Translations under genes and position numbers: made by a program
Assembly: GCF_053078305.1 (NCBI RefSeq)
Contig: NZ_CP166879.1
Reading direction: 5' to 3' (one strand)
DNA: 64,000 bases
Notes under the pieces: model-generated
Databases searched by the model: none
Seen by the model: only the letters and a program-made list of their open reading frames with translations
What the model was told of the DNA's origin: nothing
Shown here: piece after piece, positions 24,151 to 61,911 of the stretch
Position numbering within the stretch: the first letter of the stretch is position 1
How the letters are laid out: each line of letters begins with the position of its first letter

Positions 24151-24295
24151 GCGCTTAAAAACTCATTCTAAAACTCAAAAGAAAAGCGCCGATTTAGTAT
24201 CAAATAAGTTGCGTATCGGCGTTTTTCAGCGGTATCAAATGAAATGCAAATCGGTATCAAAAAAATCGCCGCGCTATATGCCGCTGACCACAGCA
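24150..24295. other. Mu-like prophage right end (transposase-binding repeats) and junction with lambdoid Z remnant
   Basis: Repeated CGGTATC / GCGTTTTTCAGCGG motifs resembling MuA end-binding sites; sequence ends ...ACCACA (terminal CA) just before lambda-like coding sequence resumes. Confidence 0.35.
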
Positions 24296-24391
24296 TTTAA
24301 ACAGAATATTGAACGTATCCGGCGTGAACGCCTGCCAGAAGAACTGGCATATGCGCTGAAACAACAACTGAGGATTGCGATAAAACGATGA
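24296..24391 (+). pseudogene. 3' fragment of lambda Z-like tail gene, disrupted by the Mu-like insertion
   Basis: Short reading frame ending in ATGA overlap with the U start, as at a lambda Z/U junction; no N-terminal part present. Confidence 0.4.
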
Positions 24392-24783
24392 AACATACTG
24401 ATATCCGTGCAGCCGTACTGGATGCACTGGAGAAGCATGACACCGGGGCGACGCTGTTTGATGGTCGCCCCGCTGTTTTTGAGGAGGCGGATTTTCCGGC
24501 GGTCGCGGTTTATCTGACGGATGCAGAGTATACCGGTGAAGAGCTGGATGCTGATACCTGGCGGGCCACACTGCATATTGAGGTGTTTTTACCGGCACAG
24601 GTACCGGATTCAGAGCTTGATCAGTGGATGGAAAGCCGGATTTACCCGGCGATGGCGGCGATCCCTGCACTGGCAGGCATGATTACCACGATGGTTACGC
24701 AGGGCTATGAGTATCGTCGTGATGACGATATGGCATTGTGGAGCTCTGCAGATCTGACTTATTCCATTACATACGAGATGTGA
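24388..24783 (+). CDS. U: Minor tail protein U
   Basis: 131 aa, near-identical to lambda gpU as recalled ([22 protein letters not shown]...). Confidence 0.9.
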
Positions 24784-24790
24784 GGATGAT

Positions 24791-25540
24791 ATGGCAACAC
24801 CAAATCCCCTGGCGCCGGTAAAAGGTTCCGGCACCACGCTCTGGGTTTACACCGGTAAGGGCGATGCTTATGCAAACCCGCTGTCAGATGATGAGTGGAC
24901 GCGTCTGGCAAAAATAAAGGATCTGACCCCCGGCGAGATGACGGCGGAATCCTACGACGATAACTATCTGGATGATGAGGATGCTGACTGGGTATCCACC
25001 GGGCAGGGGCAGAAATCTGCCGGTGACACCAGTTTTACGCTGGCCTGGAAGCCCGGCGAGAAAGGGCAGCGTGATTTGATTGCCTGGTTTGACAGCAGTG
25101 AGACCCGGGCCTACAAAATCCGCTTCCCGAACGGTACGGTGGATGTGTTCCGTGGCTGGGTGAGCGCCATTGGTAAAGCGGTGACTGCCAAAGAAGTGAT
25201 TACCCGTACGGTAAAAATCACCAATATTGGTCGTCCGTCGCTGGCGGAGGATCGGGGAGAAATCACACCGGTCACCGGTATTACCGTGACGCCACTAACG
25301 GGGAATGTGGCAAAAGGTCAGAGCACCACCCTGACTGTGGCCGTTCAGCCGGAAGGCGCAACGGATAAAACATTCCGCGCAACGTCGGCAAATCAGAATT
25401 TCGCCACCATTACCGTGAAAGGGAACACGATCACCGTGAAAGGTGTTGCGGCAGGTAAAGCGCAGATCCCTGTTGTCACCGGCAACGGTGAGTTTGCGGC
25501 GGTGGCGGAGATCACCGTTACGGATGGCGCTGCGGGCTGA
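24791..25540 (+). CDS. V: Major tail protein V (with C-terminal Ig-like domain)
   Basis: 249 aa, lambda V-like N-terminus. Confidence 0.9.
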
Positions 25541-25556
25541 GGGGAGGAGATCAAGC

Positions 25557-25979
25557 ATGTTCCTGAAAACAGAACAATTTGAATATAACGGTGTGTCCGT
25601 CACGCTGTCGGAACTGTCCGCGCTGCAGCGGTTTGATTATATAAAGTTTGTTTCAGACGCAGCACAACAGGAGACAACGGAGCATGATGCCGTGCACATT
25701 AACCAGCGATATCTGGAAACGGCATCCCTGCTTGTGGCGATGTCGCTATGGCATTCCCATTCCCTCAAAGGCACTCTGGCCTCTCCGGAGACAGAGATGC
25801 AGCAGATCCGCCGTGAAGTGATGCTGGGATGGCCTGCTGATGCACTGAATCAGGCAACGAACCGGGTGCTTTATCTTTCAGGTATGCTGGATAACCGGCA
25901 CGATGCCGATCCTGAACAAACCGGGAAAGCAGAAGCGACTGAGCCGGTAACATCAAAAAAGCATTCGAAGGCGAGCTGA
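25557..25979 (+). CDS. G: Tail assembly chaperone G
   Basis: ATG at 25557 with SD GAGGGGAGGAG; about 140 aa. Confidence 0.85.
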   Translation: MFLKTEQFEYNGVSVTLSELSALQRFDYIKFVSDAAQQETTEHDAVHINQRYLETASLLVAMSLWHSHSLKGTLASPETEMQQIRREVMLGWPADALNQATNRVLYLSGMLDNRHDADPEQTGKAEATEPVTSKKHSKAS

Positions 25980-26419
25980 ACTTTGTCCTGAAACTGGCGC
26001 GTGAGATGGGGAGAGCCGACTGGCGCGCCATGCTTGCCGGGATGACATCCACCGAATATGCCGACTGGCGACGTTTTTACTGCACGCATTATTTTCAGGA
26101 TACCCAACTGGACGCTCATTTTTCCGGGCTGATGTACGCCGTACTCAGCCTGTTTTTTGGCGATCCGGATATGCATCCGGCGGATTTCAGTCTGCTTGCT
26201 CCAGCGTGTGAGGAAGAGCAGACGGAGATGCCGGACGAGGAAGAAATGCTGATGCAGAAAGCGACAGGAGTTGCCGGAGGCGTCCGGTTCGGAGGGGACG
26301 GGGGACGCGATATTTCACCTTCTGCGGATGTGGTGGATGTCAGCGAGGATGATGTTGCATTAATGATGGCTTCAGCGGGGATTTCCGGAGGTGTGAGATA
26401 TGTCCCAGCCAGCGGGTGA
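25557..26419 (+). CDS. T: Tail assembly chaperone G-T fusion via programmed -1 frameshift at 25955-25961
   Basis: T ORF is in the -1 frame; zero-frame heptamer A-AAA-AAG near the end of G. Confidence 0.7.
25955..25961 (+). other. Slippery heptamer A_AAA_AAG (-1 programmed frameshift site)
   Basis: Zero-frame codons TCA-AAA-AAG; the -1 frame continues uninterrupted into the T ORF. Confidence 0.7.
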
Positions 26420-29012
26420 TCTGGTTATTGATTTGAGTCTGGATGCGGCCCGGTTTGATGAACAGATGGCCCGGGTACGCCGTCATTTTTCCAGTCTGGA
26501 GGCGGATGCCAGAAAAACCGCCAGTACTGTTGAACAGGGGCTGAGCCGACAGGCGCTGGCTGCACAAAAAGCCGGGATATCAGTCGGACAGTATAAGGCT
26601 GCCATGCGCACACTGCCCGCACAGTTCACGGATATTGTCACTCAGCTTGCCGGTGGTCAGAATCCCTTCCTTATCATGCTGCAGCAGGGGGGGCAGATCA
26701 GCGATTCATTCGGTGGACCGCTCAGCCTGCTTACCCTGCTGAAGGAGGAACTTCTCGGGATCAGGGATGCCTCTGAATCATCAGAGGATTCGCTGTCAGA
26801 TACGGCAAATGCTCTGGCTGAAAATGCCCGGAATGCCGGTGAACTGGGACGATTTATGTCGGTGGCCCGTGTGGCGGCAGGTGGCGGGGTTGCCGTACTG
26901 GCCGCGCTTGCTGCTGCCGCCTGGCAGGCAGAGCAGGCTGACCGGGCCTTATTGCGTTCACTGACCCTGACCGGAGGGGCGGCTGCCACCACAACGGCCG
27001 AATTGTGGAAAATGGCCGGGGTGATCAGCGATGAAGCCGGTGGTGGTATCAGACAGGCGGCAGAAAATCTGGCCCGTCTGGCAGAAAGCGGGAAATATAC
27101 CGCCGGGCAGCTACGGATCATGGGGGAAACCTCTCAGAGATGGCTGCAGACGGTGGGGGACGATGCCGGGAAGGTGGAAAAAGCCTTTGAAGGGATTGCA
27201 GCAGATCCGGTGAAGGCGCTGGCCTCCCTGAATCAGCAGTATAACTTCCTGAGCGTTTCCCAGTTACGCCATATTGATGAGCTTGAGCGCACGAAAGGTA
27301 AACAGGCTGCGGTGACGGAGGCGATGTCCCTGTTTGCGGATGTTATGAATGCACGTCTGGAGCAACTTGATAAAGCGGCCACGCCGGTGGAAAAAATCTG
27401 GGACGATGTTAAAACCTGGACTTCTGACGCATGGGCATGGATAGGTGATCATACACTGGGGGCACTCAGTCTGATCACTGACGTGGTGGCAGGAACCGTT
27501 GAACAGGTGAAGCTGCTGCTTGTGCAGGGGGATCTGGCGCTGGCTGAATTTATTCAGTCAGCCTGGGAAACGACAAAGAATGTGCCCGGCGTTGGTGCGT
27601 TGTTTGGTGAACTGGCAGAAGAGAACCGCGTATTTATTGAGAAAACAAAACGCGATGAACTGGCGCTGAGAAAATCCATTGCGGAACGGGATGCGCGTAT
27701 ACGCCAGGGGGAAATGGGGTACATCAACCGTTCGCGTGCAACAGGCGTCAGCAAAGGTCCGGGGCAGCAGGAAGCCGTCAGCCGTCTGGCTGAAGAGCTG
27801 ACAGGTAAAAAGCATACATCACCGAAAACGCGCTCTGCCGGGGAGAGGGAAGAGGAGCAGGCAAGAGAGGCTCTGCTTGCCCTTGAAGCTGAACTCAGGA
27901 CGCTGGAAAAACACAGCGGTGCGAATGAGAAAATCAGCCGGCAACGCCGTGATTTATGGAAGGCGGAAAGTCAGTATGCGGTCCTGAAAGAGGCTGCCAC
28001 GAAACGACAGTTATCCGGGCAGGAAAAATCCCTGCTGGCCCATGAGAAAGAGACGCTGGAGTACAAACGCCAGCTGGCTGAGCTGGGCGACAAGGTTGAA
28101 TACCAGAAACGCCTGAATGAGCTGGCACAGCAGGCGGCACGGTTTGAAGAGCAGCAGAGCGCGAAGCAGGCCGCCATCAGCGCAAAAGCCCGTGGTCTCA
28201 CTGACCGTCAGGCGCAGCGGGAGTCTGAAGCGCAGCGTCTTCGTGACGTGTATGGCGATAATCCGCAGGCGCTGGCACAGGTCACCGGGGCACTGAAACA
28301 GACATGGGCGGATGAAGACATGCTGCGCGGTGACTGGCTGGCCGGGCTGAAGTCCGGCTGGGGCGAGTGGGCAGAAAGTGCGACGGACAGTTTTTCGCAG
28401 GTTAAAAGTGCTGCCACGCAGACCTTTGACGGTATTGCGCAGAATATGGCGGCGATGCTGACCGGTGCAGAGGCAGACTGGCGGGGATTCACCCGTTCGG
28501 TGCTGTCCATGATGACAGAAATCCTGCTTAAACAGGCCATGGTGGGAATTGTCGGGCGTATCGGCAGTGCCATTGGTGGTGCTTTCGGTGGTGGTGCATC
28601 TGCTTCCTCGGGGACGGCCATTGAGGCTGCGGCGGCGAACTTCCATTTCGCGACCGGAGGATTTACGGGGACGGGCGGCAAATATGAGCCTGCGGGGATA
28701 GTTCACCGCGGGGAGTTTGTTTTCACGAAAGAGGCAACCAGCCGGATAGGTGTGGGGAATCTTTACCGTCTGATGCGCGGGTATGCGGAAGGTGGTTATG
28801 TGGGTGCTGCCGGAAGTCCGGCGCAGATGCGGCGGGCGGAAGGTATTAATTTTAATCAGAACAATCACGTGGTGATTCAGAACGACGGTATCAACGGACA
28901 GGCGGGGCCGCAGCTGATGAAGGCGGTGTATGACATGGCCCGTAAGGGGGCGCAGGATGAACTCCGGCTGCAGTTACGTGATGGCGGTATGTTATCAGGG
29001 AGCGGGCGATGA
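26400..29012 (+). CDS. H: Tail tape measure protein H
   Basis: 870 aa; N- and C-terminal regions closely resemble lambda H. Confidence 0.9.
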   Translation: MSQPAGDLVIDLSLDAARFDEQMARVRRHFSSLEADARKTASTVEQGLSRQALAAQKAGISVGQYKAAMRTLPAQFTDIVTQLAGGQNPFLIMLQQGGQISDSFGGPLSLLTLLKEELLGIRDASESSEDSLSDTANALAENARNAGELGRFMSVARVAAGGGVAVLAALAAAAWQAEQADRALLRSLTLTGGAAATTTAELWKMAGVISDEAGGGIRQAAENLARLAESGKYTAGQLRIMGETSQRWLQTVGDDAGKVEKAFEGIAADPVKALASLNQQYNFLSVSQLRHIDELERTKGKQAAVTEAMSLFADVMNARLEQLDKAATPVEKIWDDVKTWTSDAWAWIGDHTLGALSLITDVVAGTVEQVKLLLVQGDLALAEFIQSAWETTKNVPGVGALFGELAEENRVFIEKTKRDELALRKSIAERDARIRQGEMGYINRSRATGVSKGPGQQEAVSRLAEELTGKKHTSPKTRSAGEREEEQAREALLALEAELRTLEKHSGANEKISRQRRDLWKAESQYAVLKEAATKRQLSGQEKSLLAHEKETLEYKRQLAELGDKVEYQKRLNELAQQAARFEEQQSAKQAAISAKARGLTDRQAQRESEAQRLRDVYGDNPQALAQVTGALKQTWADEDMLRGDWLAGLKSGWGEWAESATDSFSQVKSAATQTFDGIAQNMAAMLTGAEADWRGFTRSVLSMMTEILLKQAMVGIVGRIGSAIGGAFGGGASASSGTAIEAAAANFHFATGGFTGTGGKYEPAGIVHRGEFVFTKEATSRIGVGNLYRLMRGYAEGGYVGAAGSPAQMRRAEGINFNQNNHVVIQNDGINGQAGPQLMKAVYDMARKGAQDELRLQLRDGGMLSGSGR

Positions 29013-29338
29013 AAACCTTTCGCTGGAAAGTGAAGCCGGATATGGAGGTGAACTCGCAGCCGTCGGTGCGTGAAGTGCGTTTTGGTGACGGGTACTCACA
29101 GCGTATGGCGGCAGGGCTGAATGCTGACCTGAAAACATACCGGGTGATGCTTTCCGTGACCCGGGAGGAGGCCCGGCATCTGGAAGCGTTCCTGGCAGAG
29201 CACGGGGGCTGGAAGGCATTTTTGTGGAAGCCACCCTATGCATACCGGCAGATAAAGGTGACCTGTGCCGGGTGGTCTGCGCGGGTCGGGATGCTGCGCG
29301 TTGAGTTCAGCGCGGAGTTTAAGCAGGTGGTGAACTGA
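29009..29338 (+). CDS. M: Minor tail protein M
   Basis: 109 aa, lambda position. Confidence 0.85.
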   Translation: MKTFRWKVKPDMEVNSQPSVREVRFGDGYSQRMAAGLNADLKTYRVMLSVTREEARHLEAFLAEHGGWKAFLWKPPYAYRQIKVTCAGWSARVGMLRVEFSAEFKQVVN

Positions 29339-30036
29339 TGCAGGATATTCACGAAGAAACTCTTAACGAGTCGGTTAAGTCAGAGCAGTCACCGCGGGTG
29401 GTGCTCTGGGAAATCGACCTGACGGCGCAGGGCGGTGAGCGGTATTTTTTCTGCAATGAGCTGAATGAAAAAGGGGAGCCGGTGACCTGGCAGGGGCGTG
29501 AATATCAGGCGTACCCGATTGAGGGCAGCGGCTTTGAGATGAACGGAAAGGGCAGCAGTGCCCGCCCGTCGCTGACAGTGTCCAATCTTTTTGGGCTGGT
29601 CACCGGGATGGCGGAGGATTTGCAGAGCCTGGTGGGTGCCACGGTGGTCCGCCGCCGGGTGTATGCGCGTTTTCTGGATGCGGTGAATTTTGTGGCAGGC
29701 AATCCGGAGGCAGACCCTGAGCAGGAGCTGATGGACCGGTGGGTGGTGGAGCAGATGTCAGCGCTGACGGCCATGACGGCCTCGTTTGTGCTGGCGACAC
29801 CGACGGAGACGGACGGTGCGCTGTTTCCCGGTCGCATCATGCTGGCGAACACCTGTATGTGGGATTACCGGGGCGATGAATGCGGGTATAACGGTCCGGC
29901 AGTGGCGGATGAGTTCGACAACCCCACCACGGATATCCGGAAGGACAGATGCAGTAAATGCATGCGCGGGTGTGAGATGCGCGGCATGGTGGCTAATTTC
30001 GGCGGTTTCCTTTCCATTAATAAACTTTCGCAGTAA
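29338..30036 (+). CDS. L: Minor tail protein L
   Basis: 232 aa, lambda position. Confidence 0.85.
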   Translation: MQDIHEETLNESVKSEQSPRVVLWEIDLTAQGGERYFFCNELNEKGEPVTWQGREYQAYPIEGSGFEMNGKGSSARPSLTVSNLFGLVTGMAEDLQSLVGATVVRRRVYARFLDAVNFVAGNPEADPEQELMDRWVVEQMSALTAMTASFVLATPTETDGALFPGRIMLANTCMWDYRGDECGYNGPAVADEFDNPTTDIRKDRCSKCMRGCEMRGMVANFGGFLSINKLSQ

Positions 30037-30046
30037 ATCCCGTTTT

Positions 30047-30790
30047 ATGACACAGACTGAATCAGCGATTCTGGCGCATGCCCGGCGGTGTGCGCCAGCG
30101 GAGTCGTGCGGCTTCGTGATAAGCACCCCGGAGGGCGAACGGTACCAGCCCTGCGTGAATATCTCCGCAGAGCCGGAGGCGTATTTTCGTATTGCACCGG
30201 AAGACTGGCTGCGGGCAGATATGCAGGGGGAGATTGTGGCGCTGGTCCACAGTCATCCCGGTGGTCTGCCCTGGCTGAGCGAGGCGGACCGGCGGCTGCA
30301 GATAAAGAGTGCCCTGCCCTGGTGGCTGGTCTGCCGGGGCGACATTCACCGGTTCCGCTGTGTGCCGCACCTGACCGGACGGCGCTTTGAACACGGTGTG
30401 ACGGACTGTTACAGCCTGTTCCGGGATGCATACCATCTGGCGGGGATAACGCTGCCGGATTTTGTGCGTGAGGATGACTGGTGGCGCAACGGCCAGAACC
30501 TGTACCTGGACAACCTGGCGGACAACGGCTTTTACCGGGTGTCTCCGTCCTGTGCACAGGCGGGCGATATCCTGCTGTGCTGCTTTGGTTCATCGGTGCC
30601 GAATCATGCCGCCATTTACTGTGGCAACGGTGAACTGCTTCACCATATACCTGAACAACTGAGTAAACGGGAGAGGTATTCTGAAAAATGGCAACGACGA
30701 ACGCATTCTGTCTGGCGTCACCGCCACTGGTCCGTATCTGCCTTCACGGGGATTTACAACGATTTGGTCGCCGCATCAGCCTGTATGTGA
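30047..30790 (+). CDS. K: Tail assembly protein K
   Basis: ATG at 30047 (MTQTESAILAHARRC...), 247 aa. Confidence 0.8.
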   Translation: MTQTESAILAHARRCAPAESCGFVISTPEGERYQPCVNISAEPEAYFRIAPEDWLRADMQGEIVALVHSHPGGLPWLSEADRRLQIKSALPWWLVCRGDIHRFRCVPHLTGRRFEHGVTDCYSLFRDAYHLAGITLPDFVREDDWWRNGQNLYLDNLADNGFYRVSPSCAQAGDILLCCFGSSVPNHAAIYCGNGELLHHIPEQLSKRERYSEKWQRRTHSVWRHRHWSVSAFTGIYNDLVAASACM

Positions 30791-31368
30791 ACACGGCAGC
30801 GGAGGCCATACGTGCCCTGTCACTGCAGGTGCCGGGATTCCGCGGTCAGATGAACGAAGGCTGGTACCGGATACGTATTGCCGGTGAGGATACCGCGCCG
30901 GAGGCGGTGTATGCCCGTCTTCACGAACAACTGGGTGAGGGAGCGGTCATCCACATTGTACCGCGACTGGCCGGAGCCGGGGGAAATGGTGTTTTTCAGG
31001 TGGTGCTGGGGGCAGCAGCCATCGTGGGCTCTTTCTTCACAGCCGGTGCAACGATGGCGTTGTGGGGCGCAGCCCTGAGTGCCGGAGGGCTGACTGCCAC
31101 CACGATGCTGTTCTCACTGGGTGCCAGCATGATACTGGGTGGTGTGGCTCAGATGCTGGCCCCGAAGGCAAAGACGCCGGAGTACAAAAGTACGGATAAC
31201 GGTAAACAGAACACGTATTTTTCGTCACTGGACAACATGATTGCCCAGGGTAACCCGATGCCGGTACCTTACGGTGAAATGCTGGTTGGTTCACGACGGA
31301 TATCCCAGGACATTAGCACCCGTGATGAGGGCGGAGACGGGAAAGTGGTGGTTATCGGACGGGGATAA
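30688..31368 (+). CDS. I: Tail assembly protein I
   Basis: 226 aa, overlaps the K 3' end as in lambda. Confidence 0.8.
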   Translation: MATTNAFCLASPPLVRICLHGDLQRFGRRISLYVNTAAEAIRALSLQVPGFRGQMNEGWYRIRIAGEDTAPEAVYARLHEQLGEGAVIHIVPRLAGAGGNGVFQVVLGAAAIVGSFFTAGATMALWGAALSAGGLTATTMLFSLGASMILGGVAQMLAPKAKTPEYKSTDNGKQNTYFSSLDNMIAQGNPMPVPYGEMLVGSRRISQDISTRDEGGDGKVVVIGRG

Positions 31369-31609
31369 AAATAAAAAAATCCCGCAGAGTTAGTGGAGCT
31401 GCGGGAAATAACGATGAAGATTAATGTTATGGAGTTATTTTTTTGGGCAGAAAAACAGTAACGCAGCGTCATTATAGCGGCTACAGGCAATTGCCGGAAA
31501 TGTGAAGAATTTCAGAAATTTTATTCCGTCATGACACAGGCACCCTCCGGGGTGCCTGTTGTTTTTGGGCATAAACAGATTCAGACATCAGACAGGAGAG
31601 GGGGACAGA

Positions 31610-34600
31610 GTGGGTAAAGGGGGCGGCAAGGGGCACACACCGCGTGAGGCGAAGGACAATCTCAAATCCACGCAGATGATGAGCGTGATTGATGCCATTG
31701 GTGAGGGACCGGTGGAAGGTCCGGTGAAGGGACTGCAGAGTATTCTGGTGAACAAAACCCCGCTGACGGACACGGACGGTAATCCCGTGATACACGGTGT
31801 GACCGCCGTCTGGCGCGCCGGGGAGCAGGAGCAGACACCGCCGGAAGGCTTTGAGTCCTCCGGGGCAGAAACCGCACTGGGCGTGGAGGTGACGAAGGCA
31901 AAGCCGGTGACGCGCACCATCACGTCAGCGAACATTGACCGTCTGCGGGTCACCTTCGGGGTGCAGTCACTGGTGGAGACCACCTCAAAGGGTGACCGTA
32001 ATCCCTCTTCTGTCCGCCTGCTGATTCAGCTTGAGCGTAACGGGCACTGGGTGACGGAGAAGGATATCACCATTAACGGCAAGACCACCTCGCAGTACCT
32101 GACGTCTGTGATTCTGAATAATCTCCCTGAGCGCCCCTTTAACATCCGGATGGTCAGGGAGACGGCGGACAGCACCACGGACCAGCTGCAGAACAGAACG
32201 CTGTGGTCGTCATACACCGAAATCATCGATGTGAAACAGTGCTACCCGAACACGGCCATTGTGGGGCTGCAGGTGGATGCGGAGCAGTTTGGTGGCCAGC
32301 AGCTGACGGTGAACTACCATATCCGTGGTCGCATCATTCAGGTGCCGTCAAACTATGACCCGGAAAAACGCACCTACAGCGGTATCTGGGACGGGAGTCT
32401 GAAACCGGCATACAGCAATAACCCGGCCTGGTGCCTGTGGGACATGCTGACCCACCCGCGCTACGGCATGGGAAAACGCCTGGGGGCCGCGGATGTGGAC
32501 AAGTGGGCACTGTATGCCATCGGGCAGTACTGCGACCAGACGGTCCCGGATGGTTTCGGGGGAACAGAGCCGCGGATGACTTTCAATGCGTACCTGTCAC
32601 AGCAGCGTAAGGTGTGGGATGTCCTGGGGGATTTCTGCTCGGCGATGCGCTGTATGCCGGTATGGAACGGCCAGACGCTGACGTTCGTTCAGGACCGTCC
32701 GTCGGATGTGGTGTGGCCGTACACCAACAGCGATGTGGTGGTGGATGATAACGGCGTGGGGTTCCGCTACAGCTTCAGTGCCCTGAAGGACCGGCACACG
32801 GCGGTGGAGGTGAATTACACCGACCCGCAGAACGGCTGGCAGACCTCCACGGAACTGGTGGAAGACCCGGACGCCATCCTGCGCTACGGACGCAACCTGC
32901 TGAAGATGGATGCGTTTGGCTGTACCAGCCGCGGTCAGGCCCACCGTGCCGGACTGTGGGTGATAAAGACCGAACTGCTGGAAACGCAGACGGTGGATTT
33001 CACGCTCGGGTCACAGGGGCTGCGGCATACGCCCGGTGACATCATTGAAATCTGTGATAACGACTATGCCGGGACCCTGACCGGCGGACGCATCCTGTCC
33101 ATTGATGCCGCCAGCCGCACACTGACGCTGGACCGTGAGGTGACACTGCCGGAAGCAGGGACATCGACGGTGAACCTGATTAACGGCAGCGGTAAGCCGG
33201 TGCGCGTGGACATCACTGCACACCCCGCGCCGGACCGGATACAGGTCAGCGCCCTGCCGGATGGCGTGGAGACATACGGTGTGTGGGGACTCTCCCTGCC
33301 GTCACTGCGTCGTCGCCTGTTCCGCTGTGTTTCCATCCGGGAAAACACGGACGGCACTTTTGCCATCACGGCAGTGCAGCACGTACCGGAAAAAGAAGCC
33401 ATTGTGGATAACGGGGCTCGCTTTGAGCCGCTGTCCGGTTCACTGAACAGCGTTATCCCGCCGGCAGTGCAGCACCTCACGGTGGAGGTGAGTGCCTCAG
33501 ACGGCCAGTATCTGGCGCTGGCGAAATGGGACACGCCGCGGGTGGTGAAGGGCGTGCGCTTCAGTCTGCGCCTGACCAGCGGAAACGGTGAAAACAGCCG
33601 CCTGGTGACCACCGCCATCACTGCCGACACGGAGCACCGTTTCAGTGGCCTGCCTCTGGGGGAATACACCCTGACGGTCAGGGCGATAAACAGCTACGGC
33701 CAGCAGGGCGAACCTGCCACCACCGCGTTCCGGATTAATGCGCCTGCAGCACCGGCCAGCATTGAGCTGACGCCGGGGTATTATCAGATAACAGCAGTAC
33801 CGGTGCTGGCGGTGTATGACCCGACGGTACAGTTTGAGTTCTGGTTCTCGGAGGCAAAAATCGCAGACACATCTCAGGTGGAAACCTCTGCCCGTTATCT
33901 GGGGACAGGCAGCCAGTGGAGCGTCTCCGGCCCGCACATCAAGCCGGGGAAGGATTTCTGGTTTTATGTGCGCAGCGTTAACCTGGTGGGGAAATCTGCG
34001 TTTGTGGAAGCCAGTGGCCGGGCGAGCAATGATGCAGAAGGGTATCTGGGGCTGTTTCGGGAAAAGATAGGAAAACTGCATCTGGCACAGGGGATGTGGG
34101 AGCTGATTGATAACAGCCAGCTTGACAATGAGATGGCGGAGATGAAGACCACCATCACCGAAACCCGCAATGAAATCACGCAGACGGTCAGTAAAACCCT
34201 GGAAGACCAGAGCGCCACCATACAGCAGATACAGCGGGTGCAGACAGACACAAATAACGACCTGGCTGCGCTGTACATGCTGAAGGTGCAGAAAACAAAA
34301 AACGGCATTCCGTATGTTGCCGGTATAGGTGCGGGGATTGAGGATGCTGATGGCCAGCCCCTGAGCAATATTCTGCTGCAGGCGGACCGTATCGCGATGA
34401 TTAACCCGGAGAACGGCAACACCACGCCGCTGTTTGTGGCGCAGGGGAATCAGCTGTTCATGAACGATGTGTTCCTGAAGCGGTTGTTTGCAGTGAGCAT
34501 CACCTCGTCCGGCAATCCCCCGACGTTTTCCCTGACGCCGGACGGGAAACTGACGGCCCGCAATGCTGATATCAGCGGACATATCAGTGCGAACTCGGGC

Positions 34601-35077
34601 ACGCTGAATAATGTCGTGATAGCGGAGAACTGTACGATAAATGGCACGCTGAAAGCGGAGAACATTATTGGTGATCTTGTGAAATGTGCAGGGGTGGCTT
34701 TTCCGGTGGATGGTAGTTACCTTGCGAACGGTACACGAACGCTGACGGTATATGACGATCACAGCTTTGACCGGCAGATTATAATCCCGCCGATAATCTA
34801 TGTCGGGTCAAAACAGGAATCCCGTACCAGTAATGACATCTGGACAGAGTGCTTCCTGCATGTTGATCAGAACGGACGCCGGATTTATTCAGGCAGGTCA
34901 GTGACAGAGCCGGGAATTTTCAGCGGGATCATCGATATGCCAGCCGGAGGTGGTCATATCACCCTGAGTTTTACCGTAAGTTCACGACGTCAGAACGGGA
35001 GTTTTGGCAGTTCACGTATCAGTAACCTTCAGGCGATAGTGGTGAAGAAAAACAGCGCGGGGATCAGTATCCGCTGA
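31610..35077 (+). CDS. J: Tail tip / host specificity protein J
   Basis: GTG start (GTG GGT AAA GGG...) after SD AGGAGAGGGGG; 1155 aa with strong lambda-J similarity and a divergent C-terminal receptor-binding region. Confidence 0.9.
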
Positions 35078-35275
35078 ACATCGCGCCCCGGGATTGCCGG
35101 AAGGAGACAAAAACCGTACAGTATGCGCGGGTGCCTTTGGCTGATGGCCGGAGGGAACACCTGAAGGCCGGAAAGACGAAGGCCCCGGACAAACATTCAT
35201 GTTTAACCCGAGGCCTGACTTTCGATCTTCAGCAAATTGAAGGTTAGCGCCTCTCCGTAAAAGGAGCAAGCGTTT

Positions 35276-35416
35276 ATGTCGCAAAAACCGTTAAAAACCA
35301 CCGTGATTTGTACCACGGTAGTGCTCATTATCTGGATCACCCACACTTCACTGTGCGAGTTCCGGTTCCGGATAGCGGGCGCGGAGATTGCGGCGTTCTT
35401 ACAGTGTAAGCAGTAA
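35276..35416 (+). CDS. Hok/Gef-family type I toxin-like small membrane protein, 46 aa, in the lom position
   Basis: MSQKPLKTTVICTTVVLIIWITHTSLCEFRFRIAGAEIAAFLQCKQ carries the Hok signature (TM helix, then SLCE-x-R-x-R...E-I/V-AAF...C); SD AAGGAG 9 nt upstream. Confidence 0.6.
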   Translation: MSQKPLKTTVICTTVVLIIWITHTSLCEFRFRIAGAEIAAFLQCKQ

Positions 35417-35513
35417 GAAACCGTGGCGTGGGAGAATATCCCCCGCCGACCGGTTGCTGAGGGTGGTCAGCCGGATGGCACCGTTTTAACACCAACAAAC
35501 CACAAATATTACC

Positions 35514-35547
35514 GCAGGCCGGGAAACCGGTACTGCGGTTTTTTTAT
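35514..35547 (+). terminator. Rho-independent terminator downstream of the hok-like gene
   Basis: CCGCAG...CTGCGG stem followed by TTTTTTT. Confidence 0.55.
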
Positions 35548-35558
35548 GGGGGAAATCC

Positions 35559-37292
35559 ATGACAGTCAGAATATCGGGTGTGCTGAAGGATGGTACGGGA
35601 AAAGCGGTACCGGGATGCACGATAGAGCTGAAAGCGCGCCGCACAACGGAGACGGTGATTGTCACCACGGTGGCGTATGGTCAGCCGGGGGAAACCGGCA
35701 GTTACAGTATGGATGTTGAGCCGGGGTTGTACCGGGTGACGCTGAACACGGAAGGGTACGCGCCGTCATATGTGGGTGACATTCTGGTGAAGGCGGATTC
35801 TGCACCGGGAACGCTGAATAAATTTCTGATGGACCTGGAAGACGCACAGTATTACCCGAAAGCCCTTGCAGAGCTGGAAGCGGTGGCAGCGGAAATCCTG
35901 AAGCGTGCAGAAGCGTCAGCGGCCAGTGCAGAGGAAGCGAAGAAACGGGCAGAGAATGCGCGGGGACCGAAGGGGGATAAGGGAGACACCGGGCCACAGG
36001 GGATTCCCGGGCCAAAAGGCGATACCGGCGAGCGGGGGCCAAAGGGTGAGCGTGGTGAGACAGGGCCACAGGGGCTTCAGGGTGTGAAAGGTGAACGGGG
36101 AGAGAAGGGCGAAAAAGGCGAGCCGGGAGGGCCGGATGCGACGACGGCACAGAAGGGAATTGTGCAGTTAAGCAGCGCAACGGACAGTGATGATGAAACG
36201 AAGGCAGCCACGCCGAAAGCGGTGAAAGCGGCAATGGACAAAGCGGACGGATGCCTGGAGAAAGCGAAAAACGGTGACGATATCCCGGATAAGGTGAAGT
36301 TTCTGAACACCGTGGGAGCAGCCAGAGTATACGGGCGGGACATTCATACGGGGGCCGGTGAATGGACCACGAGTGAGTTTGTCGCCTGGCTGAAAGAAAA
36401 AGGGGCATTTGACCAGCCTTACTGGATGATGAAGGCATCACTGCTTGCGTCAATGAATAAAGTCATCACAGATGTCGGACCGGGAAAACTCAATCTGGGT
36501 GGCTGTGTCATTGAGGTGATGGGAACGTATGAGGCTGCCATAGTCCGGGTCACCATTGGCGAATACGGTGCAACGGGGTTTATTAATGGCACGGTCTGTA
36601 CCTGTACGGTTTACGGCGACACACAGTATTTCCACTGGCGGGTGGATTACAGCACAAAAAACAAACCGGATACGGTCAGCCAGCGGGATGCCAGTACGAC
36701 GCAGAAAGGTGTGGTGCAGTTAAGCAGTGATACTGGCAGTAATGACGAAACAAAGGCAGCCACGCCGAAGGCCGTGAAGGCGGCAATGGATGTGGCAAAT
36801 GAAGCGAAAACAAAGGCAGAAGAGGCTGCAGCAGGAGGTGGTGTTCCCGGTCCGAAAGGAGAGAAAGGTGACCCCGGAGCACAGGGTCCGAAAGGTGAAA
36901 CGGGAGCAACAGGCCCCGCTGGTCCGCGGGGAGCGCAGGGACCGAAAGGGGAGAAAGGCGACCCCGGTCCCAGAGGTGAGCGTGGAGAAACCGGGCCGAT
37001 GGGGCCGCCGGGGGCATCAGGAGATGACGGGAAGAGTCGTGTCATGGGCTTCAGGCTGGGGAATCCGGTAACGTATGAGTTGCAGGAGGGGGACCATGGC
37101 TGGTCAGTTAATCTGGCTGATGGTTCAGTCATTACAGGGCTTTCGGGGAACACTCAGGGCGGCGTCAGCCGTGTTACAACGATTTACTACAGGCCGCTGC
37201 AGATGACGTTTGATGGCTCTCACTGGCGCACCGTTGGTGTTGGTGAGTATGTGTCGTCAGGAGCGCCGGGGCGTGAGTATTTTTCATTATAA
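35559..37292 (+). CDS. stf: Side tail fibre protein with two collagen-like Gly-X-Y tracts
   Basis: 577 aa; [37 protein letters not shown] and a second GXY run. Confidence 0.85.
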
Positions 37293-37333
37293 AGCGCATC
37301 ACTTGTCAGACATGTAACCGGGAGGACTTACAG

Positions 37334-38005
37334 ATGCACATAAAGAATTTCAGACAATACACGCCGGAAAATCCGGATGTGCCGGGTGCGATGTACCTGA
37401 AATCAGAGGATGGTCAGGACTGGTATGAGTGTCAGTCGTTATTTTCAGCAGAGACGCTGAAGGTGGTTTATAACAGTGCCGGGGTCATTACCGGCATCAG
37501 CAGGGTGGCATCAGTTCTGTGGCCTGTGAATCAGAGTGTGGTGGAGGTGGCGGATACGGAAGAAAACCGCAAAGCTGACATCTCCGGGCGCTGGGGTTTT
37601 GACGGGGAGAAAATCACGGACCTGCTGACCGCGGAGAAAGCGCGAGGGATGAAGGGCGATGAAATTAACGCCTGGCGTAATGCGATGGAAGCGGCGAACT
37701 ACACGTTTGAGCACAATGGGCGTAAATGGGACTACGGGAAGTCAACGCAGACGCGTCTTGAGCCGTCGGTGGCGGCAGCGAAAGCGGGGAAACTGCCGGA
37801 GGCGTTTTTCTGGACGGATGCGGAAAACAATGATGTGCCGGTGACAGCAGACGAGCTTATTGCGCTGAGTGAAGCGGCAGAGCAGGCGATGTTTACCAAA
37901 GGGATGGAAATCCACGTCCGGCAGCGCACCATGAAGAAAGAGCTGGAAAAGCTGACCAGTGAGGATGAGATACTGGCATACAGGGTTGGCTGGGCACAGG
38001 AATAA
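37334..38005 (+). CDS. tfa: Tail fibre assembly protein
   Basis: 223 aa, lambda Tfa-like, immediately after stf. Confidence 0.8.
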   Translation: MHIKNFRQYTPENPDVPGAMYLKSEDGQDWYECQSLFSAETLKVVYNSAGVITGISRVASVLWPVNQSVVEVADTEENRKADISGRWGFDGEKITDLLTAEKARGMKGDEINAWRNAMEAANYTFEHNGRKWDYGKSTQTRLEPSVAAAKAGKLPEAFFWTDAENNDVPVTADELIALSEAAEQAMFTKGMEIHVRQRTMKKELEKLTSEDEILAYRVGWAQE

Positions 38006-38317
38006 CAGACAAAAAGATGGGGGACCATCACCTCCCCCATGAACTGCGTTGACTATGTAATTATTGTGAAGAGACCTTACCTACACAGATAAAGAGTGCC
38101 ACGGAAAAGTTAATTCCGGAAGTGATGGAGCTCTCATTTTTGCGTGCTTTTTGTTCATGGGATTTACATGGGGCATCTTGGGGCATATATGGGACAAAAG
38201 AAGTCCTCAGATAAACAGAGAAATCGAGTTCAGGATTCTTATTGAAAAATGTAATTATCTGAAAAAACTTAGAAAACGCAAATAAGGCCACAGAATGTTA
38301 GAAAACATCTATGAATT

Positions 38318-39601
38318 ATGGATTTCCAGTTATATTCGCTCGGCGCAGCGTTAGTGTTTCATGAAATATTTTTTCCTGAATCATCAACGGCAATGGCGTT
38401 AATTTTGGCAATGGGAACCTACGGTGCAGGTTATGTGGCGCGTATTGTCGGAGCATTTATTTTCGGCAAAATGGGCGACAGAATAGGGCGTAAAAAAGTG
38501 CTCTTTATTACCATCACCATGATGGGGATCTGTACCACCTTAATTGGTGTGTTACCGACCTATGCACAGATTGGTGTTTTTGCCCCCATCTTGCTGGTGA
38601 CGCTGCGTATTATTCAGGGGTTGGGTGCAGGTGCGGAAATTTCCGGTGCCGGTACGATGCTGGCGGAATATGCGCCAAAAGGTAAGCGCGGAATTATCTC
38701 CTCATTTGTAGCTATGGGAACTAACTGCGGAACCTTGAGCGCAACGGCAATCTGGGCCTTTATGTTCTTCATTCTCAGTAAAGAGGAACTGCTGGCGTGG
38801 GGATGGCGTATACCGTTCCTGGCGAGCGTTGTCGTGATGGTCTTTGCTATCTGGTTGCGTATGAATCTGAAAGAAAGCCCGGTCTTTGAGAAGGTTAACG
38901 ACAGCAACCAACCGACAGCAAAACCTGCACCTGCTGGTAGCATGTTCCAGAGCAAATCCTTCTGGCTGGCAACAGGGCTGCGTTTTGGTCAGGCAGGTAA
39001 CTCCGGGTTAATTCAGACTTTCCTTGCAGGCTATTTAGTACAGACGTTATTGTTTAACAAAGCAATTCCAACAGATGCATTGATGATCAGTTCGATTCTC
39101 GGCTTTATGACCATTCCGTTCCTTGGTTGGTTATCCGATAAAATTGGTCGCCGGATCCCGTATATTATTATGAATACCTCTGCGATTGTGCTGGCATGGC
39201 CAATGCTTTCTATCATCGTAGATAAAAGCTATGCCCCGAGCACCATTATGGTTGCACTGATTGTGATTCATAACTGTGCGGTGCTGGGATTATTTGCTCT
39301 GGAAAACATTACCATGGCAGAAATGTTCGGCTGTAAAAACCGCTTTACCCGGATGGCTATTTCTAAAGAAATTGGTGGTCTTATCGCTTCCGGTTTTGGT
39401 CCTATCCTTGCGGGTATTTTCTGCACCATGACGGAATCCTGGTATCCGATCGCCATTATGATCATGGCATATTCAGTGATTGGTTTAATCTCTGCGCTGA
39501 AAATGCCAGAAGTGAAAGACCGTGATTTAAGTGCGCTGGAAGACGCTGCGGAGGATCAACCGCGTGTTGTAAGAGCTGCGCAACCTTCCAGAAGTCTGTA
39601 A
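38318..39601 (+). pseudogene. ydfJ: MFS (MHS-family) transporter, 5'-truncated at the prophage junction
   Basis: 427-aa ORF begins inside the first transmembrane region with no N-terminal motif; prophage tail genes lie directly upstream. Confidence 0.7.
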
Positions 39602-39689
39602 ATCCTCAATCCCTTCTCTTACCGGAGAGGGGATTTTTATTCATATAACAAAACATGTAGCTTGCCATATTTAAATTTAAGGAATTGTT

Positions 39690-41150
39690 ATGGGAAATAA
39701 TTTGTTATCAGCAAAAGCGACACTCCCTGTTTATGATCGTTATAACCTGGCCCCAAGAATTGTTCATTTAGGCTTTGGTGCATTTCACCGTGCGCATCAG
39801 GGCGTGTATGCCGATATTCTTGCTACAGAACATTTCAGTGACTGGGGATATTATGAGGTCAACTTAATCGGCGGCGAACAGCAAATTGCCGATTTACAAC
39901 AGCAAGATAATCTTTATACCGTTGCGGAAATGTCGGCCGATGCGTGGACGGCTCGCGTCGTTGGCGTCGTTAAAAAAGCCTTGCACGTACAGATAGATGG
40001 CTTAGAAACCGTGTTGGCTGCGATGTGTGAACCGCAAATCGCGATTGTCTCTCTGACAATCACCGAAAAAGGGTATTTCCACTCTCCGGCGACCGGACAG
40101 TTAATGCTCGATCACCCGATGGTCGTTGCCGATGTACAAAATCCCCACCAGCCGAAAACTGCAACAGGGGTGATAGTCGAGGCGCTGGCTCGCCGTAAAG
40201 CGGCAGGACTTCCCGCATTTACCGTCATGTCATGTGACAACATGCCAGAAAACGGTCATGTTATGCGTGACGTTGTCACTTCCTACGCGCAAGCTGTTGA
40301 TGTAAAATTGGCACAATGGATCGAAGAAAACGTGACTTTCCCATCAACAATGGTGGACCGTATTGTGCCCGCAGTGACAGAGGATACGCTGGCGAAAATC
40401 GAACAACTTACCGGTGTGCGCGATCCTGCGGGCGTTGCCTGTGAACCTTTCCGCCAGTGGGTTATCGAAGATAACTTTGTTGCCGGACGTCCGGAATGGG
40501 AAAAAGCGGGAGCCGAACTGGTTAGTGATGTGCTGCCTTATGAAGAGATGAAGTTGCGCATGCTCAACGGCAGTCATTCATTCCTGGCGTATTTGGGTTA
40601 TCTTGCTGGATATCAGCACATTAATGACTGTATGGAAGATGAACATTATCGTTATGCGGCGTATGGCTTGATGTTGCAGGAACAAGCGCCGACGCTGAAA
40701 GTGCAGGGCGTTGATTTGCAAGATTACGCTAACCGATTAATTGAACGCTATAGCAACCCGGCGTTACGTCATCGAACCTGGCAGATTGCGATGGATGGCA
40801 GCCAGAAATTGCCACAGCGGATGTTGGATTCTGTTCGCTGGCATCTGGCGCATGACAGCAAGTTCGATCTGCTGGCGCTGGGCGTCGCGGGTTGGATGCG
40901 TTATGTCGGTGGTGTTGATGAACAGGGAAATCCGATAGAAATCAGTGACCCACTGTTACCTGTTATTCAGAAGGCTGTACAAAGTAGTGCCGAAGGGAAA
41001 GCGCGCGTCCAGTCATTGCTGGCGATTAAGGCAATCTTTGGTGATGATTTGCCAGACAATTGCTTGTTTACTGCAAAAGTGACGGAAGCGTACTTGTCTT
41101 TATTAGCGCATGGCGCGAAAGCGACCGTGGCGAAATATTCCGTGAAGTAA
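39690..41150 (+). CDS. ydfI: Mannitol-dehydrogenase-family oxidoreductase
   Basis: 486 aa, mannitol dehydrogenase family; synteny with ydfJ/ydfH. Confidence 0.8.
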
Positions 41151-52538: not shown

Positions 52539-52973
52539 TTACGGCAGGACTTTCTTAAGCAAATGCTCAAGTGTTGCCACTTCGTCCGCCGTCAGGTTTT
52601 TTGTTAATTCTTGATGCAGGTCCTGGCCAACTAATTGATGGCATTGTTCACATATTGCCGCGCCGCTGGTGGTAAGTTTTACCAGTACGCCGCGCTTATC
52701 ATTCGGGTTCGGCAACCTTTCCACCCAGCCTTTACAGACCAGGCGATCCAGCATACGGGTCAGTGCTCCCAGGTCGACCGACAACACTTTTTTCAGTTCA
52801 ACCGGAGTAATACACGCCGCGCAGCGGATAGAGCAGAGCACCTTAAACTGTGCCGCAGTAATATCCAGCGGAGACAGATACTCGTTAAGCAGACGATCTT
52901 TCTTCTGATTAACCATATGGATTAAGCGACCCAATGGAATAATTTCATTGAACAGATCGCTGGTACTTTTCAC
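52539..52973 (-). CDS. marR: Multiple antibiotic resistance repressor MarR
   Basis: 144 aa, [25 protein letters not shown]... Confidence 0.9.
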
Positions 52974-53184
52974 ATTAGTTGCCCTGGCAAGTAATTAGTT
53001 GCAGGGGATAATATTGCCCAGGCAAGTATAAGTCAAATGAATGAATTGACCGATGCCACGTTTTGCTAAATCGGTTCAAGTTTTGGTCAATGCGATGCAA
53101 GGTTAGCTAAAGAGTGACACTTTATCCTTGTTTACCCCTTATACTTTTCGCTGATAACCCAGATACACAGGATAACAACCACCA
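52974..53184. promoter_or_regulatory. marO divergent promoter/operator region between marR and marC
   Basis: Intergenic region between the divergent marRAB and marC genes. Confidence 0.6.
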
Positions 53185-53850
53185 ATGTTAGATTTGTTTA
53201 AAGCAATTGGCCTGGGGCTGGTGGTGTTACTGCCGTTAGCTAACCCATTAACAACTGTCGCGTTATTTCTTGGCCTGGCAGGCAACATGAACAGTGCCGA
53301 ACGTAATCGTCAGTCGTTGATGGCCTCGGTGTACGTCTTTGCCATCATGATGGTGGCGTATTACGCCGGGCAACTGGTGATGGATACATTTGGCATTTCG
53401 ATTCCCGGTCTGCGAATTGCAGGCGGCTTAATCGTCGCGTTTATCGGTTTTCGGATGCTCTTTCCGCAACAGAAAGCGATTGATTCACCGGAAGCGAAAA
53501 GCAAGTCGGAAGAGCTGGAAGATGAACCCAGCGCCAATATTGCTTTTGTACCACTGGCAATGCCAAGTACCGCCGGTCCGGGAACCATTGCGATGATTAT
53601 TAGCTCGGCGTCCACAGTGCGTCAGAGTTCAACCTTCGCTGATTGGGTACTGATGGTTGCGCCGCCGCTGATCTTTTTCCTGGTGGCGGTTATTTTGTGG
53701 GGAAGTCTACGCAGCTCTGGCGCAATTATGCGGCTGGTGGGCAAGGGTGGCATTGAAGCGATCTCCCGCCTGATGGGGTTCCTGCTGGTATGTATGGGTG
53801 TGCAGTTTATTATTAACGGCATCCTGGAAATCATTAAAACGTACCATTAA
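53185..53850 (+). CDS. marC: MarC-family inner membrane protein
   Basis: 221 aa. Confidence 0.85.
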
Positions 53851-53874
53851 AAAAGGCCCGAATGGGCCTTTCAA

Positions 53875-55065: not shown

Positions 55066-55215
55066 AACAGATTATCGGGTGAGTTGCGAAAAAGTGATGA
55101 AATGATCTTAAAACGGTTAATGATGTGAATACAATGCATTTGTGATCTGGATCGCGTTTTCCGTTTCTCTGACGCTGATTCTTTCACGCGTCAGAGAGAC
55201 GGTAAACATCACGGT

Positions 55216-56331: not shown

Positions 56332-56408
56332 ATTTGCCCCATATAGTCATAAGTCATCGGAACATCACTATATAGAGCATATTAGCCGCAAGAACTATCA
56401 AAAATAGC

Positions 56409-57290: not shown

Positions 57291-57390
57291 AATATTCTCG
57301 ATTCGTGAATAAGTGGCTTAATATTATTCATTTTAAAGCAAGAGTAAATCTGCGTATCTTCATACCATGACTCATAAAGGAGATACCCCG

Positions 57391-58779: not shown

Positions 58780-58842
58780 CGCGACATATTCAGCTCTGAT
58801 ATACTCGCAGGTCTTTTCAGACCTGCGGTCCAGGAGTAGAAA

Positions 58843-60128: not shown

Positions 60129-60266
60129 GAATTGCGGAAAACGATAAAATAGCATTCCCAGGGTACCTTTATTTGCCGCCGCTGTCAGCGAACATGCTAT
60201 CCTTTATGAGAATTTACTTATTACGTTGAGATAATTGCCACCCGCAATTGTATGGACAGATAATTA

Positions 60267-61685: not shown

Positions 61686-61911
61686 CATCTTTATTCATTC
61701 AGAGTGATTTGAATGCAATGTGTTCTACCACTTTATGATCCAGGAAAAGGCGTATTTCCTCGATTAAACCATGATCCGCGCCACACTTTTCTCATAAAAC
61801 TGCTCATTAATCATCAGGAGTTGATCAAAACAGGGGTTCGGCGTATTAAAGTTTGCTAACCTGTCGTACCAATTCAAACAGGTTGTATGACTAATCAGAA
61901 GGGAACCCATT

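What the first reader, a model, noticed from the sequence alone, without database searches (positions are those of the whole stretch)
38006..38330. Prophage-chromosome junction truncates ydfJ
The transporter ORF lacks its N-terminus and begins directly after prophage tail genes, with a hairpin (GGGGGA...TCCCCC) after tfa. This fits the Qin-type insertion in ydfJ known from E. coli K-12; the exact att boundary is not resolvable by eye.
Basis: partly seen in the sequence, partly recalled or inferred. Interest (0 to 1): 0.2.

Follow-up and report, generated by a model that had tools for sequence, protein, structure and literature searches.

The report
Prophage end junction inside ydfJ
This is the right-hand attachment junction (attR) of a lambda-like prophage that integrated into the E. 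coli transporter gene ydfJ and removed its first 28 codons, the same well-known integration site used by the K-12 Qin prophage, so it is real but ordinary.

Summary
The window is an E. coli chromosome. Its 427-aa transporter ORF (38318-39601) is ydfJ without codons 1-28. Alignment with an uninterrupted 455-aa allele from the closest available genome (PapRG-06-5) places the breakpoint in the att core GAATT-ATGGATTTC (38313-38326; attB has GAATTTATGGATTTC, ydfJ nt 79-93). A four-way comparison of attP, attR, attL and attB puts strand exchange inside TTATGGATTTC (38316-38326). An in-frame TGA sits at 38312-38314. The missing 5' end and a second core copy are absent from the window. About 150 bp to the left of the core (~38160-38312) is a phage attP arm. 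It is 76% identical to the K-12 Qin end and is contiguous with core, P' arm and int in free phages such as mEp460. The prophage is not Qin itself: it carries a different tail-end module (J, hok/sok, collagen-repeat side tail fibre, DUF4376 Tfa-like protein). The hairpin (38017-38040) is real, but its T-run lies on the minus strand. In relatives it sits between tfa and a convergent ykgJ-like gene that is missing here. This integration site is already described in the literature, so interest is low. In passing: a Mu-like prophage (1-24278) interrupts the lambdoid tail gene Z.

The parts
24279..38312 (+). Right-hand part of a lambdoid prophage (3' 113 nt of a Z-like gene, U, V, G/T, H, M, L, K, I, J, hok/sok, side tail fibre, Tfa-like protein, attP arm).
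   Evidence: ORF list. Homology to annotated lambdoid tail modules begins at 24279.
35559..37292 (+). Side tail fibre (577 aa) with a prophage tail fibre N-terminal domain, collagen repeats and phage fibre repeats.
   Evidence: Pfam PF08400 3.8e-40, PF03406 3.1e-35, PF01391 1.1e-18; PHROG 366.
37334..38005 (+). Tfa-like last phage gene (223 aa): DUF4376 C-terminal domain and a weak tail-fibre-assembly N-terminal domain.
   Evidence: PF14301 4.9e-18; PF02413 0.0014, below the curated cutoff. phrog_11571 1e-149 and phrog_136 'tail fiber assembly' over residues 1-98. PGAP calls it a 'DUF4376 domain-containing protein' in the 99% identical strain.
38017..38040 (-). Hairpin ATGGGGGA-N8-TCCCCCAT, terminator-like on the minus strand only (followed by CTTTTTGTCT).
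   Evidence: It belongs to the tfa-module segment that in relatives is followed by a convergent ykgJ-like gene.
38041..38158 (.). Remnant of the tfa / ykgJ-like intergenic spacer of the tail module. The mosaic joint to the att arm lies at ~38147-38163.
   Evidence: Homology to prophages at other sites (dusA, tRNA-Ser) ends at 38147-38158. Homology to other ydfJ-resident prophages starts at 38145-38163.
38160..38312 (.). attP-derived arm (tail-side 'P' arm) of ydfJ-integrating lambdoid phages. It contains tandem TGGGGCAT repeats at 38169-38176 and 38179-38186, which are candidate arm-type integrase sites.
   Evidence: It is conserved in about 5,300 E. coli genomes next to ydfJ'. It is 76-80% identical to K-12 Qin and two other prophages. 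From 38178 it is contiguous with core, P' arm and int in four free phage genomes at ~89%. Repeat. The same TGGGGCA tandem occurs in attL arms.
38313..38326 (.). att core GAATT-ATGGATTTC (attB: GAATTTATGGATTTC = ydfJ nt 79-93). Inferred strand-exchange segment TTATGGATTTC at 38316-38326.
38318..39601 (+). ydfJ' : 3' 1284 nt (codons 29-455) of the MHS-family MFS transporter gene ydfJ. It has lost its native start, 28 codons (part of TM1) and its upstream promoter region.
   Evidence: (PGAP: pseudo, missing N-terminus).
39608..39635 (+). Terminator-like hairpin after ydfJ (chromosomal).

Best explanation
Window 38006-38330 is the right prophage-chromosome junction (attR) left by site-specific, tyrosine-integrase-mediated integration of a lambdoid phage into the 5' end of ydfJ. 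The phage attP core (GAATT-ATGGATTTC-a-AG) recombined with the near-identical attB (GAATTTATGGATTTC-c-AG, ydfJ nt 79-96). Strand exchange lay within the 11 nt shared exactly by both (TTATGGATTTC, window 38316-38326). As a result, ydfJ codons 1-28 and the rspAB side of the locus were moved to the far (attL) end of the prophage, outside this window. Codons 29-455 remain here behind about 150 bp of phage attP arm. The remaining ORF starts at the internal Met29 codon, which lies inside the core. It has an in-frame TGA immediately upstream, no Shine-Dalgarno-like sequence and no + strand promoter-like site, so it is most likely a silent pseudogene (an inference). The hairpin after tfa is part of the tail-module mosaic segment and is oriented as a minus-strand intrinsic terminator. 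In related prophages it closes a convergent ykgJ-like gene that is absent here. In this context it would stop leftward transcription entering the tail genes. In the excised circular phage that would include int-direction transcripts crossing attP (an inference).
For: Shown by tool results:
- The intact 455-aa ydfJ of the closest genome (99.6% over 20 kb of flank) aligns from nt 78 to window 38312, and not before.
- The four-way att alignment is reciprocal. attR equals attP on the left and attB on the right; attL equals attB on the left and attP on the right. attP comes from free phage mEp460_ev081. attL comes from strain FHI_NMBU_10, whose tfa-ydfJ' junction is identical to the window over 38041-38345. 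attB comes from PapRG-06-5.
- The K-12 Qin ends carry the same core at both junctions.
- The arm is conserved only right of ~38160.
- 2,011 of 5,426 complete E. coli genomes hold the uninterrupted rspB-ydfJ sequence. The rest match it in split pieces (median 2 places per genome), so the site is commonly occupied.
- PGAP marks ydfJ as 'incomplete, missing N-terminus' at the same coordinates in related genomes.
- The Pfam MFS_1 match starts at profile position 33 in the truncated protein and at position 2 in the intact one.
- Hairpin and T-run orientation. Module context.
Literature: Qin integration at the 5' end of ydfJ causes promoter loss and loss of 28 N-terminal codons (PMC6379469). The attP of ydfJ prophages has been determined experimentally with an 18-19-bp att sequence, and ydfJ is occupied in many strains including K-12 (PMC8112680 S7 Fig legend).
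Against: The attL end, the integrase gene and the ydfJ 5' fragment of this particular genome lie outside the window. The reciprocal junction is therefore shown only in a related strain, not in the same molecule. The prophage is interrupted by a Mu-like element at 24278/24279, so I cannot tell whether its left half is still present. Non-expression of ydfJ' is inferred only. The 427-aa ORF is intact and has no amino-acid change relative to intact alleles. That fits a recent insertion, but it does not exclude continued function.
Confidence: 0.95

Rival explanations
1. The 427-aa ORF is a genuine, shorter ydfJ gene with its own start, as the K-12 reference annotates b1543 ('putative transporter YdfJ'), and not a truncated one. 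The upstream DNA would then be ordinary intergenic sequence.
For: K-12 RefSeq annotates the 427-aa product as a CDS. The ORF is intact and its protein is 100% identical to residues 29-455 of intact alleles.
Against: 2,011 genomes carry a contiguous 455-aa gene directly after rspB. The ATG is Met29 inside the att core. PGAP flags the ORF as N-terminally incomplete. The upstream 150 bp is phage attP arm found in free phages. The MFS_1 profile match loses its first ~30 positions.
Confidence: 0.03
2. ydfJ was truncated by an illegitimate deletion or rearrangement at the edge of a prophage remnant, not by site-specific integration.
For: The prophage is mosaic and is damaged by a Mu-like insertion. 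A mosaic joint lies only ~160 bp from the junction.
Against: The breakpoint coincides to the base with the core shared by attP, attL, attR and attB, and with the same junction in K-12 and thousands of other genomes. An illegitimate event would not reproduce it.
Confidence: 0.02
3. The hairpin at 38017-38040 is the rho-independent terminator of the + strand tail (late) operon, as the reader implied by describing it as 'after tfa'.
For: It lies 12 nt after the tfa stop codon and folds stably (dG -16.2 kcal/mol, z = -2.65).
Against: No T-run follows it on the + strand (GAACTGCGTT). The T-run is on the minus strand. In relatives a convergent minus-strand ykgJ-like gene ends about 170 nt to its right (stop at L012 16226, with the hairpin at about L012 16072-16095 by the alignment offset).
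Confidence: 0.25

Closest known systems
Cryptic prophage Qin (Kim) of E. coli K-12, right junction with ydfJ (b1543) and ynfP/ydfJ 5' fragment (b4534) at the left junction
   Same: Same target gene and same core. K-12 attR has GAATTATGGATTTC and K-12 attL has GAATTTATGGATTTC. The same 28-codon truncation leaves an identical 427-aa ORF. The phage-side arm is homologous (76%) and carries the TGGGGCA repeat tandem. Described in PMC6379469.
   Different: The gene content next to the junction differs. Qin has ynfT, ydfK, pinQ, tfaQ and stfQ in inverted orientation. The window has J, hok/sok, a collagen-repeat stf and a DUF4376 tfa-like gene in direct orientation, then a terminator-like hairpin. Similarity left of ~38160 is at random level (26%).
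PPydfJ prophages of STEC/EPEC (Nakamura et al. 2021, PMC8112680) and free lambdoid phages mEp460, Tritos, HannyBb, PhiR42_1
   Same: They share the integration module. The reconstructed attP (arm from 38178, core, P' arm, 3' end of int) is contiguous in these phages at ~89% identity. The paper reports an experimentally determined attP and an 18-19-bp att sequence.
   Different: mEp460 has the Qin-like tfa, pin, ydfK-like layout before attP. Most other ydfJ prophages have a DinI-like gene there. Only 10 of 5,426 genomes share this tfa-to-ydfJ arrangement.
Phage lambda attP / attR (POB') and the tI/sib element beyond att
   Same: The overall architecture matches. A ~150-bp tail-side arm with repeated short motifs lies next to a short core, and int/xis sit at the other prophage end. 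A terminator-like hairpin oriented in the int direction lies ~270 nt beyond the core on the tail side. This is a positional resemblance, from established knowledge of lambda.
   Different: The core, arm and target sequences are unrelated to those of lambda. The hairpin segregates with the tail module, not with the int/att module. No evidence of RNase III processing was obtained.

Membership tests
Lambdoid prophage integrated at the ydfJ (Qin-type) attachment site | The chromosomal side of the junction is ydfJ from about codon 29 onward, followed by ydfI, ydfZ, rspR and ydfG. | tested here: met
Lambdoid prophage integrated at the ydfJ (Qin-type) attachment site | The junction falls in the shared core GAATT(T)ATGGATTTC. 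| tested here: met
   Core at 38313-38326, the only copy in the window. Four-way att alignment.
Lambdoid prophage integrated at the ydfJ (Qin-type) attachment site | The phage-side arm is homologous to the attP arm of phages and prophages with this specificity. | tested here: met
   76-80% identity to Qin and two other prophages. ~89% identity to attP of four free phages.
Lambdoid prophage integrated at the ydfJ (Qin-type) attachment site | A reciprocal attL (rspB, ydfJ nt 1-78, core, P' arm, IntQ-type tyrosine integrase and Xis) lies at the other prophage end of the same genome. | not testable with these tools
   It lies outside the 64-kb window and the source genome is not in the collections (best junction match 99.2%). 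It is present in strain FHI_NMBU_10, which has the same junction.
K-12 Qin prophage itself (same element by descent) | Qin gene content adjacent to ydfJ (ynfT, ydfK, pinQ, tfaQ, stfQ). | tested here: not met
   A different tail-end module is present, and similarity left of ~38160 is random.
Rho-independent (intrinsic) terminator, for the hairpin at 38017-38040 | A G+C-rich stem-loop followed at once by a U-tract on the transcribed strand. | tested here: inconclusive
   The stem has 8 bp, 5 of them G-C. The T-run is present on the minus strand only and absent on the + strand. Folding z-scores are -2.65 on the + strand and -1.77 on the minus strand. No transcript data are available.
Lambda sib/tI-type retroregulator of int | A hairpin downstream of int across attP, linked to the int/att module and processed by RNase III. 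| tested here: not met
   Position and orientation fit (~270 nt from the core, int-direction strand). However, the segment is inherited with the tail module in prophages that use other att sites. RNase III processing is not testable here.

The most novel reading that the evidence does not exclude
Integration may not simply kill ydfJ. The 427-aa remnant could still be made, starting at the core-encoded Met29 and driven by read-through from the prophage late/tail operon, which has no + strand terminator before it. It might retain some transport or regulatory role. That would help explain why the ORF is intact and has no amino-acid change in occupied genomes, including K-12 with its ancient Qin remnant.
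Probability: 0.07. Interest if true: 0.3.

Novelty: already known. Interest (0 to 1): 0.07.

Why it matters
The finding matters mainly for annotation. It fixes the prophage boundary to the base: phage DNA ends within 38313-38326. It shows that the 427-aa 'transporter' is the 3' part of a split gene. It also shows that the element is a different lambdoid phage using the Qin attachment specificity, not Qin itself. ydfJ is one of the commonest prophage hot spots in E. coli; about 63% of complete genomes lack an uninterrupted rspB-ydfJ sequence. The closest relative of this strain has an empty site, which marks this as a lineage-specific acquisition. Nothing here changes current understanding.

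Tried and rejected
- I searched the whole window for the missing ydfJ 5' end (DNA and the 28-aa peptide) and for a second core copy. Only chance-level hits turned up, so attL is not in the window.
- I tested whether 38006-38160 is related to the chromosomal ykgJ/ecpE region, which is the source of the 'attB-in-prophage' sequences in PMC8112680. There was no similarity to the K-12 locus. The segment matches only the tfa / ykgJ-like spacer of other prophages.
- The small ORFs in the junction (38061-38291 minus strand, 76 aa; 38151-38285 plus strand, 44 aa) have no PHROG matches. They overlap the conserved att arm, so I treat them as spurious.
- An Rfam search of 34500-40000 found nothing in the junction. 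The only hit was sok, upstream of hok.
- No + strand sigma-70-like promoter was found between tfa and ydfJ'.
- The source genome could not be identified exactly. The best flank match is 99.6% and the best junction match is 99.2%.
- The sib-like reading of the hairpin was considered and downgraded, because the hairpin travels with the tail module.

Full report
**What is at the coordinates**

The last phage ORF on the + strand (37334-38005, 223 aa) has a DUF4376 domain (PF14301, 4.9e-18) and a weak N-terminal tail-fibre-assembly match. It follows a 577-aa side tail fibre with a prophage tail fibre N-terminal domain and collagen repeats. After its stop codon come 312 nt without credible genes. 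The two small ORFs there have no PHROG match. Next comes a 427-aa MFS-transporter ORF (38318-39601), followed by ydfI, ydfZ, rspR, ydfG and dcp.

**Identity of the window**

The chromosomal flank 42000-62000 is E. coli. The best matches are PapRG-06-5 and TUM13936 at 99.6%. The source genome itself is not in the collection.

**Mapping the breakpoint**

- PapRG-06-5 carries an uninterrupted ydfJ of 1368 nt (455 aa) directly after rspB.
- Its nt 78-1368 align to window 38312-39601 at 99.3%, and nothing to the left aligns.
- The core is GAATTTATGGATTTC in attB (ydfJ nt 79-93). In the window it is GAATT-ATGGATTTC (38313-38326), one T shorter.
- The ORF's ATG (38318) is the Met29 codon inside this core. 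TGA at 38312-38314 closes the frame upstream.
- The ydfJ 5' 78 nt, the N-terminal 28 residues and any second copy of the core are absent from the 64 kb.

**Relation to K-12 Qin**

In MG1655 the annotated Qin prophage (1632277-1652745) is bounded by ydfJ b1543 (427 aa) and by ynfP b4534, which is the 5' fragment of ydfJ. K-12 attR reads ...ctgtGAATTATGGATTTCcagttat. K-12 attL reads ...gcttGAATTTATGGATTTCaagagtcat. Joining the two K-12 flanks recreates the 455-aa reading frame.

That virtual attB occurs uninterrupted in 2,011 of 5,426 complete E. coli genomes. The others match it in separate pieces, with a median of two places per genome. The site is therefore occupied or disrupted in roughly 63% of genomes. 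This agrees with published statements that Qin integration removes 28 N-terminal codons and the promoter of ydfJ (PMC6379469). It also agrees with the report that phages occupy ydfJ in many strains, with an experimentally defined attP and an 18-19-bp att sequence (PMC8112680).

**The phage side of the junction**

- Nearly all E. coli genomes match the query only from window 38145-38163 rightwards, whatever prophage gene lies upstream: usually a DinI-like gene, and ydfK in K-12.
- In a five-way alignment, the window is 76% identical to Qin and 79-80% identical to two other prophages over 38178-38312. Similarity is random (26-35%) left of ~38160.
- I built a virtual attP from the window arm plus core and the phage side of an attL. 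From window 38178 onwards it is contiguous, in one piece at ~89% identity, in four free phage genomes: mEp460_ev081, Tritos, HannyBb and PhiR42_1. There it runs into the 3' end of the integrase gene.
- mEp460 has the layout tfa, pin, ydfK-like, attP, int, xis, which is the Qin layout.

**The four-way att alignment**

The sequences compared were attP of mEp460, attR of the window, attL of FHI_NMBU_10 and attB of PapRG-06-5.

- attR equals attP on the left, including the shorter GAATT-A, and equals attB on the right (cAGttatat).
- attL equals attB on the left and attP on the right (aAGagtcat).
- Strand exchange therefore lies inside the 11 nt identical in all four, TTATGGATTTC (38316-38326).

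FHI_NMBU_10 has a junction identical to the window over 38041-38345. It carries a 424-aa tyrosine integrase and an excisionase at its attL.

Tandem TGGGGCAT repeats 10 nt apart (38169 and 38179) recur as a TGGGGCA tandem in the P' arms of K-12 and FHI_NMBU_10. The motif occurs only eight times in the whole window. I regard these repeats as candidate arm-type integrase sites; this is an inference.

**The hairpin**

It has no T-run on the + strand. On the minus strand it is followed by CTTTTTGTCT and meets the terminator-like criteria. The segment 38006-38158 travels with the tail module. Prophages at dusA and at a tRNA-Ser carry the same J, hok, stf, tfa block plus this spacer, followed by a convergent minus-strand ykgJ-like gene. 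Homology to the window stops ~13 nt short of that gene's stop codon.

The hairpin is therefore best read as the terminator of a convergent gene that has been lost here through a mosaic joint at ~38147-38163. Its position, ~270 nt beyond the core on the int-direction strand, recalls lambda tI/sib. Its linkage to the tail module argues against a dedicated int retroregulator.

**Consequence for ydfJ**

- The truncated product loses the start of the MFS fold. The MFS_1 match starts at profile position 33, against position 2 in the intact protein.
- No Shine-Dalgarno-like sequence precedes the ATG.
- No + strand promoter-like site was found in 37300-39750.
- PGAP marks the ORF as a pseudogene in related genomes.
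- The 427 codons nevertheless carry no amino-acid change relative to intact alleles. There are 8-13 nucleotide differences and all are synonymous.
- This fits recent, independent insertions. It does not formally exclude residual function, and that is the only mildly novel reading left open.

**Verdict**

The observation and the interpretation are both confirmed and refined. The feature is an attR junction of a well-described integration hot spot. It is already known and of low interest.

**Noticed in passing**

- Window 1-24278 is the right ~24 kb of a Mu-like prophage: portal DUF935, sheath, tape measure, baseplate, invertase, com and mom. Its right end abuts nt ~466 of 579 of the lambdoid Z-like tail gene. 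A transposable phage has apparently landed inside the lambdoid prophage.
- A hok/sok locus lies between J and stf. The Rfam sok match scores 63.5 bits against a gathering score of 59. The ORF matches Pfam HOK_GEF at 7.4e-10.

Noticed in passing
window 1-24278, with the junction at 24278/24279: This is the right ~24 kb of a Mu-like transposable prophage (DUF935 portal, protease, gpT-like capsid, sheath, tube, tape measure, DNA circularization protein, baseplate, tail fibre, invertase, DUF6645, com, mom). Its right end abuts nt ~466 of 579 of the lambdoid prophage's Z-like tail gene. The same element sits at unrelated chromosomal sites in other strains. It looks like a prophage-in-prophage insertion that inactivates the lambdoid tail module. 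The left end and the target duplication lie outside the window.
   Followed up: partly
window 35129-35416: A hok/sok type I toxin-antitoxin locus lies between the J tail-tip gene and the side tail fibre gene. The Rfam sok match is at 35129-35287 (63.5 bits, gathering score 59). The 46-aa Hok/Gef ORF is at 35276-35416 (Pfam 7.4e-10). It is conserved at this position in related tail modules.
   Followed up: partly
window ~38147-38163: A mosaic recombination joint lies here. The tail module plus its downstream spacer, shared with prophages at dusA and tRNA-Ser that carry a ykgJ-like gene, ends here. The ydfJ-specific att arm begins here. The ykgJ-like gene itself is missing.
   Followed up: yes
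window 38318-39601: The truncated ydfJ ORF has 8-13 nucleotide differences from intact alleles and from K-12. All are synonymous, so there are no amino-acid changes. The neighbouring ydfI has 4 amino-acid changes among 18 nucleotide differences against the same closest genome.
   Followed up: partly
window 18653-19662: The Mu-like prophage carries a serine recombinase (186 aa, 19102-19662) next to an inverted tail-fibre gene fragment on the minus strand. This suggests a G-segment-like invertible host-range region.
   Followed up: no
L005 (PapRG-06-5) compared with the window: The closest available genome (99.6% flank identity) has an empty, intact ydfJ site. The prophage is therefore a lineage-specific acquisition, or it has been precisely lost in that relative.
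   Followed up: partly
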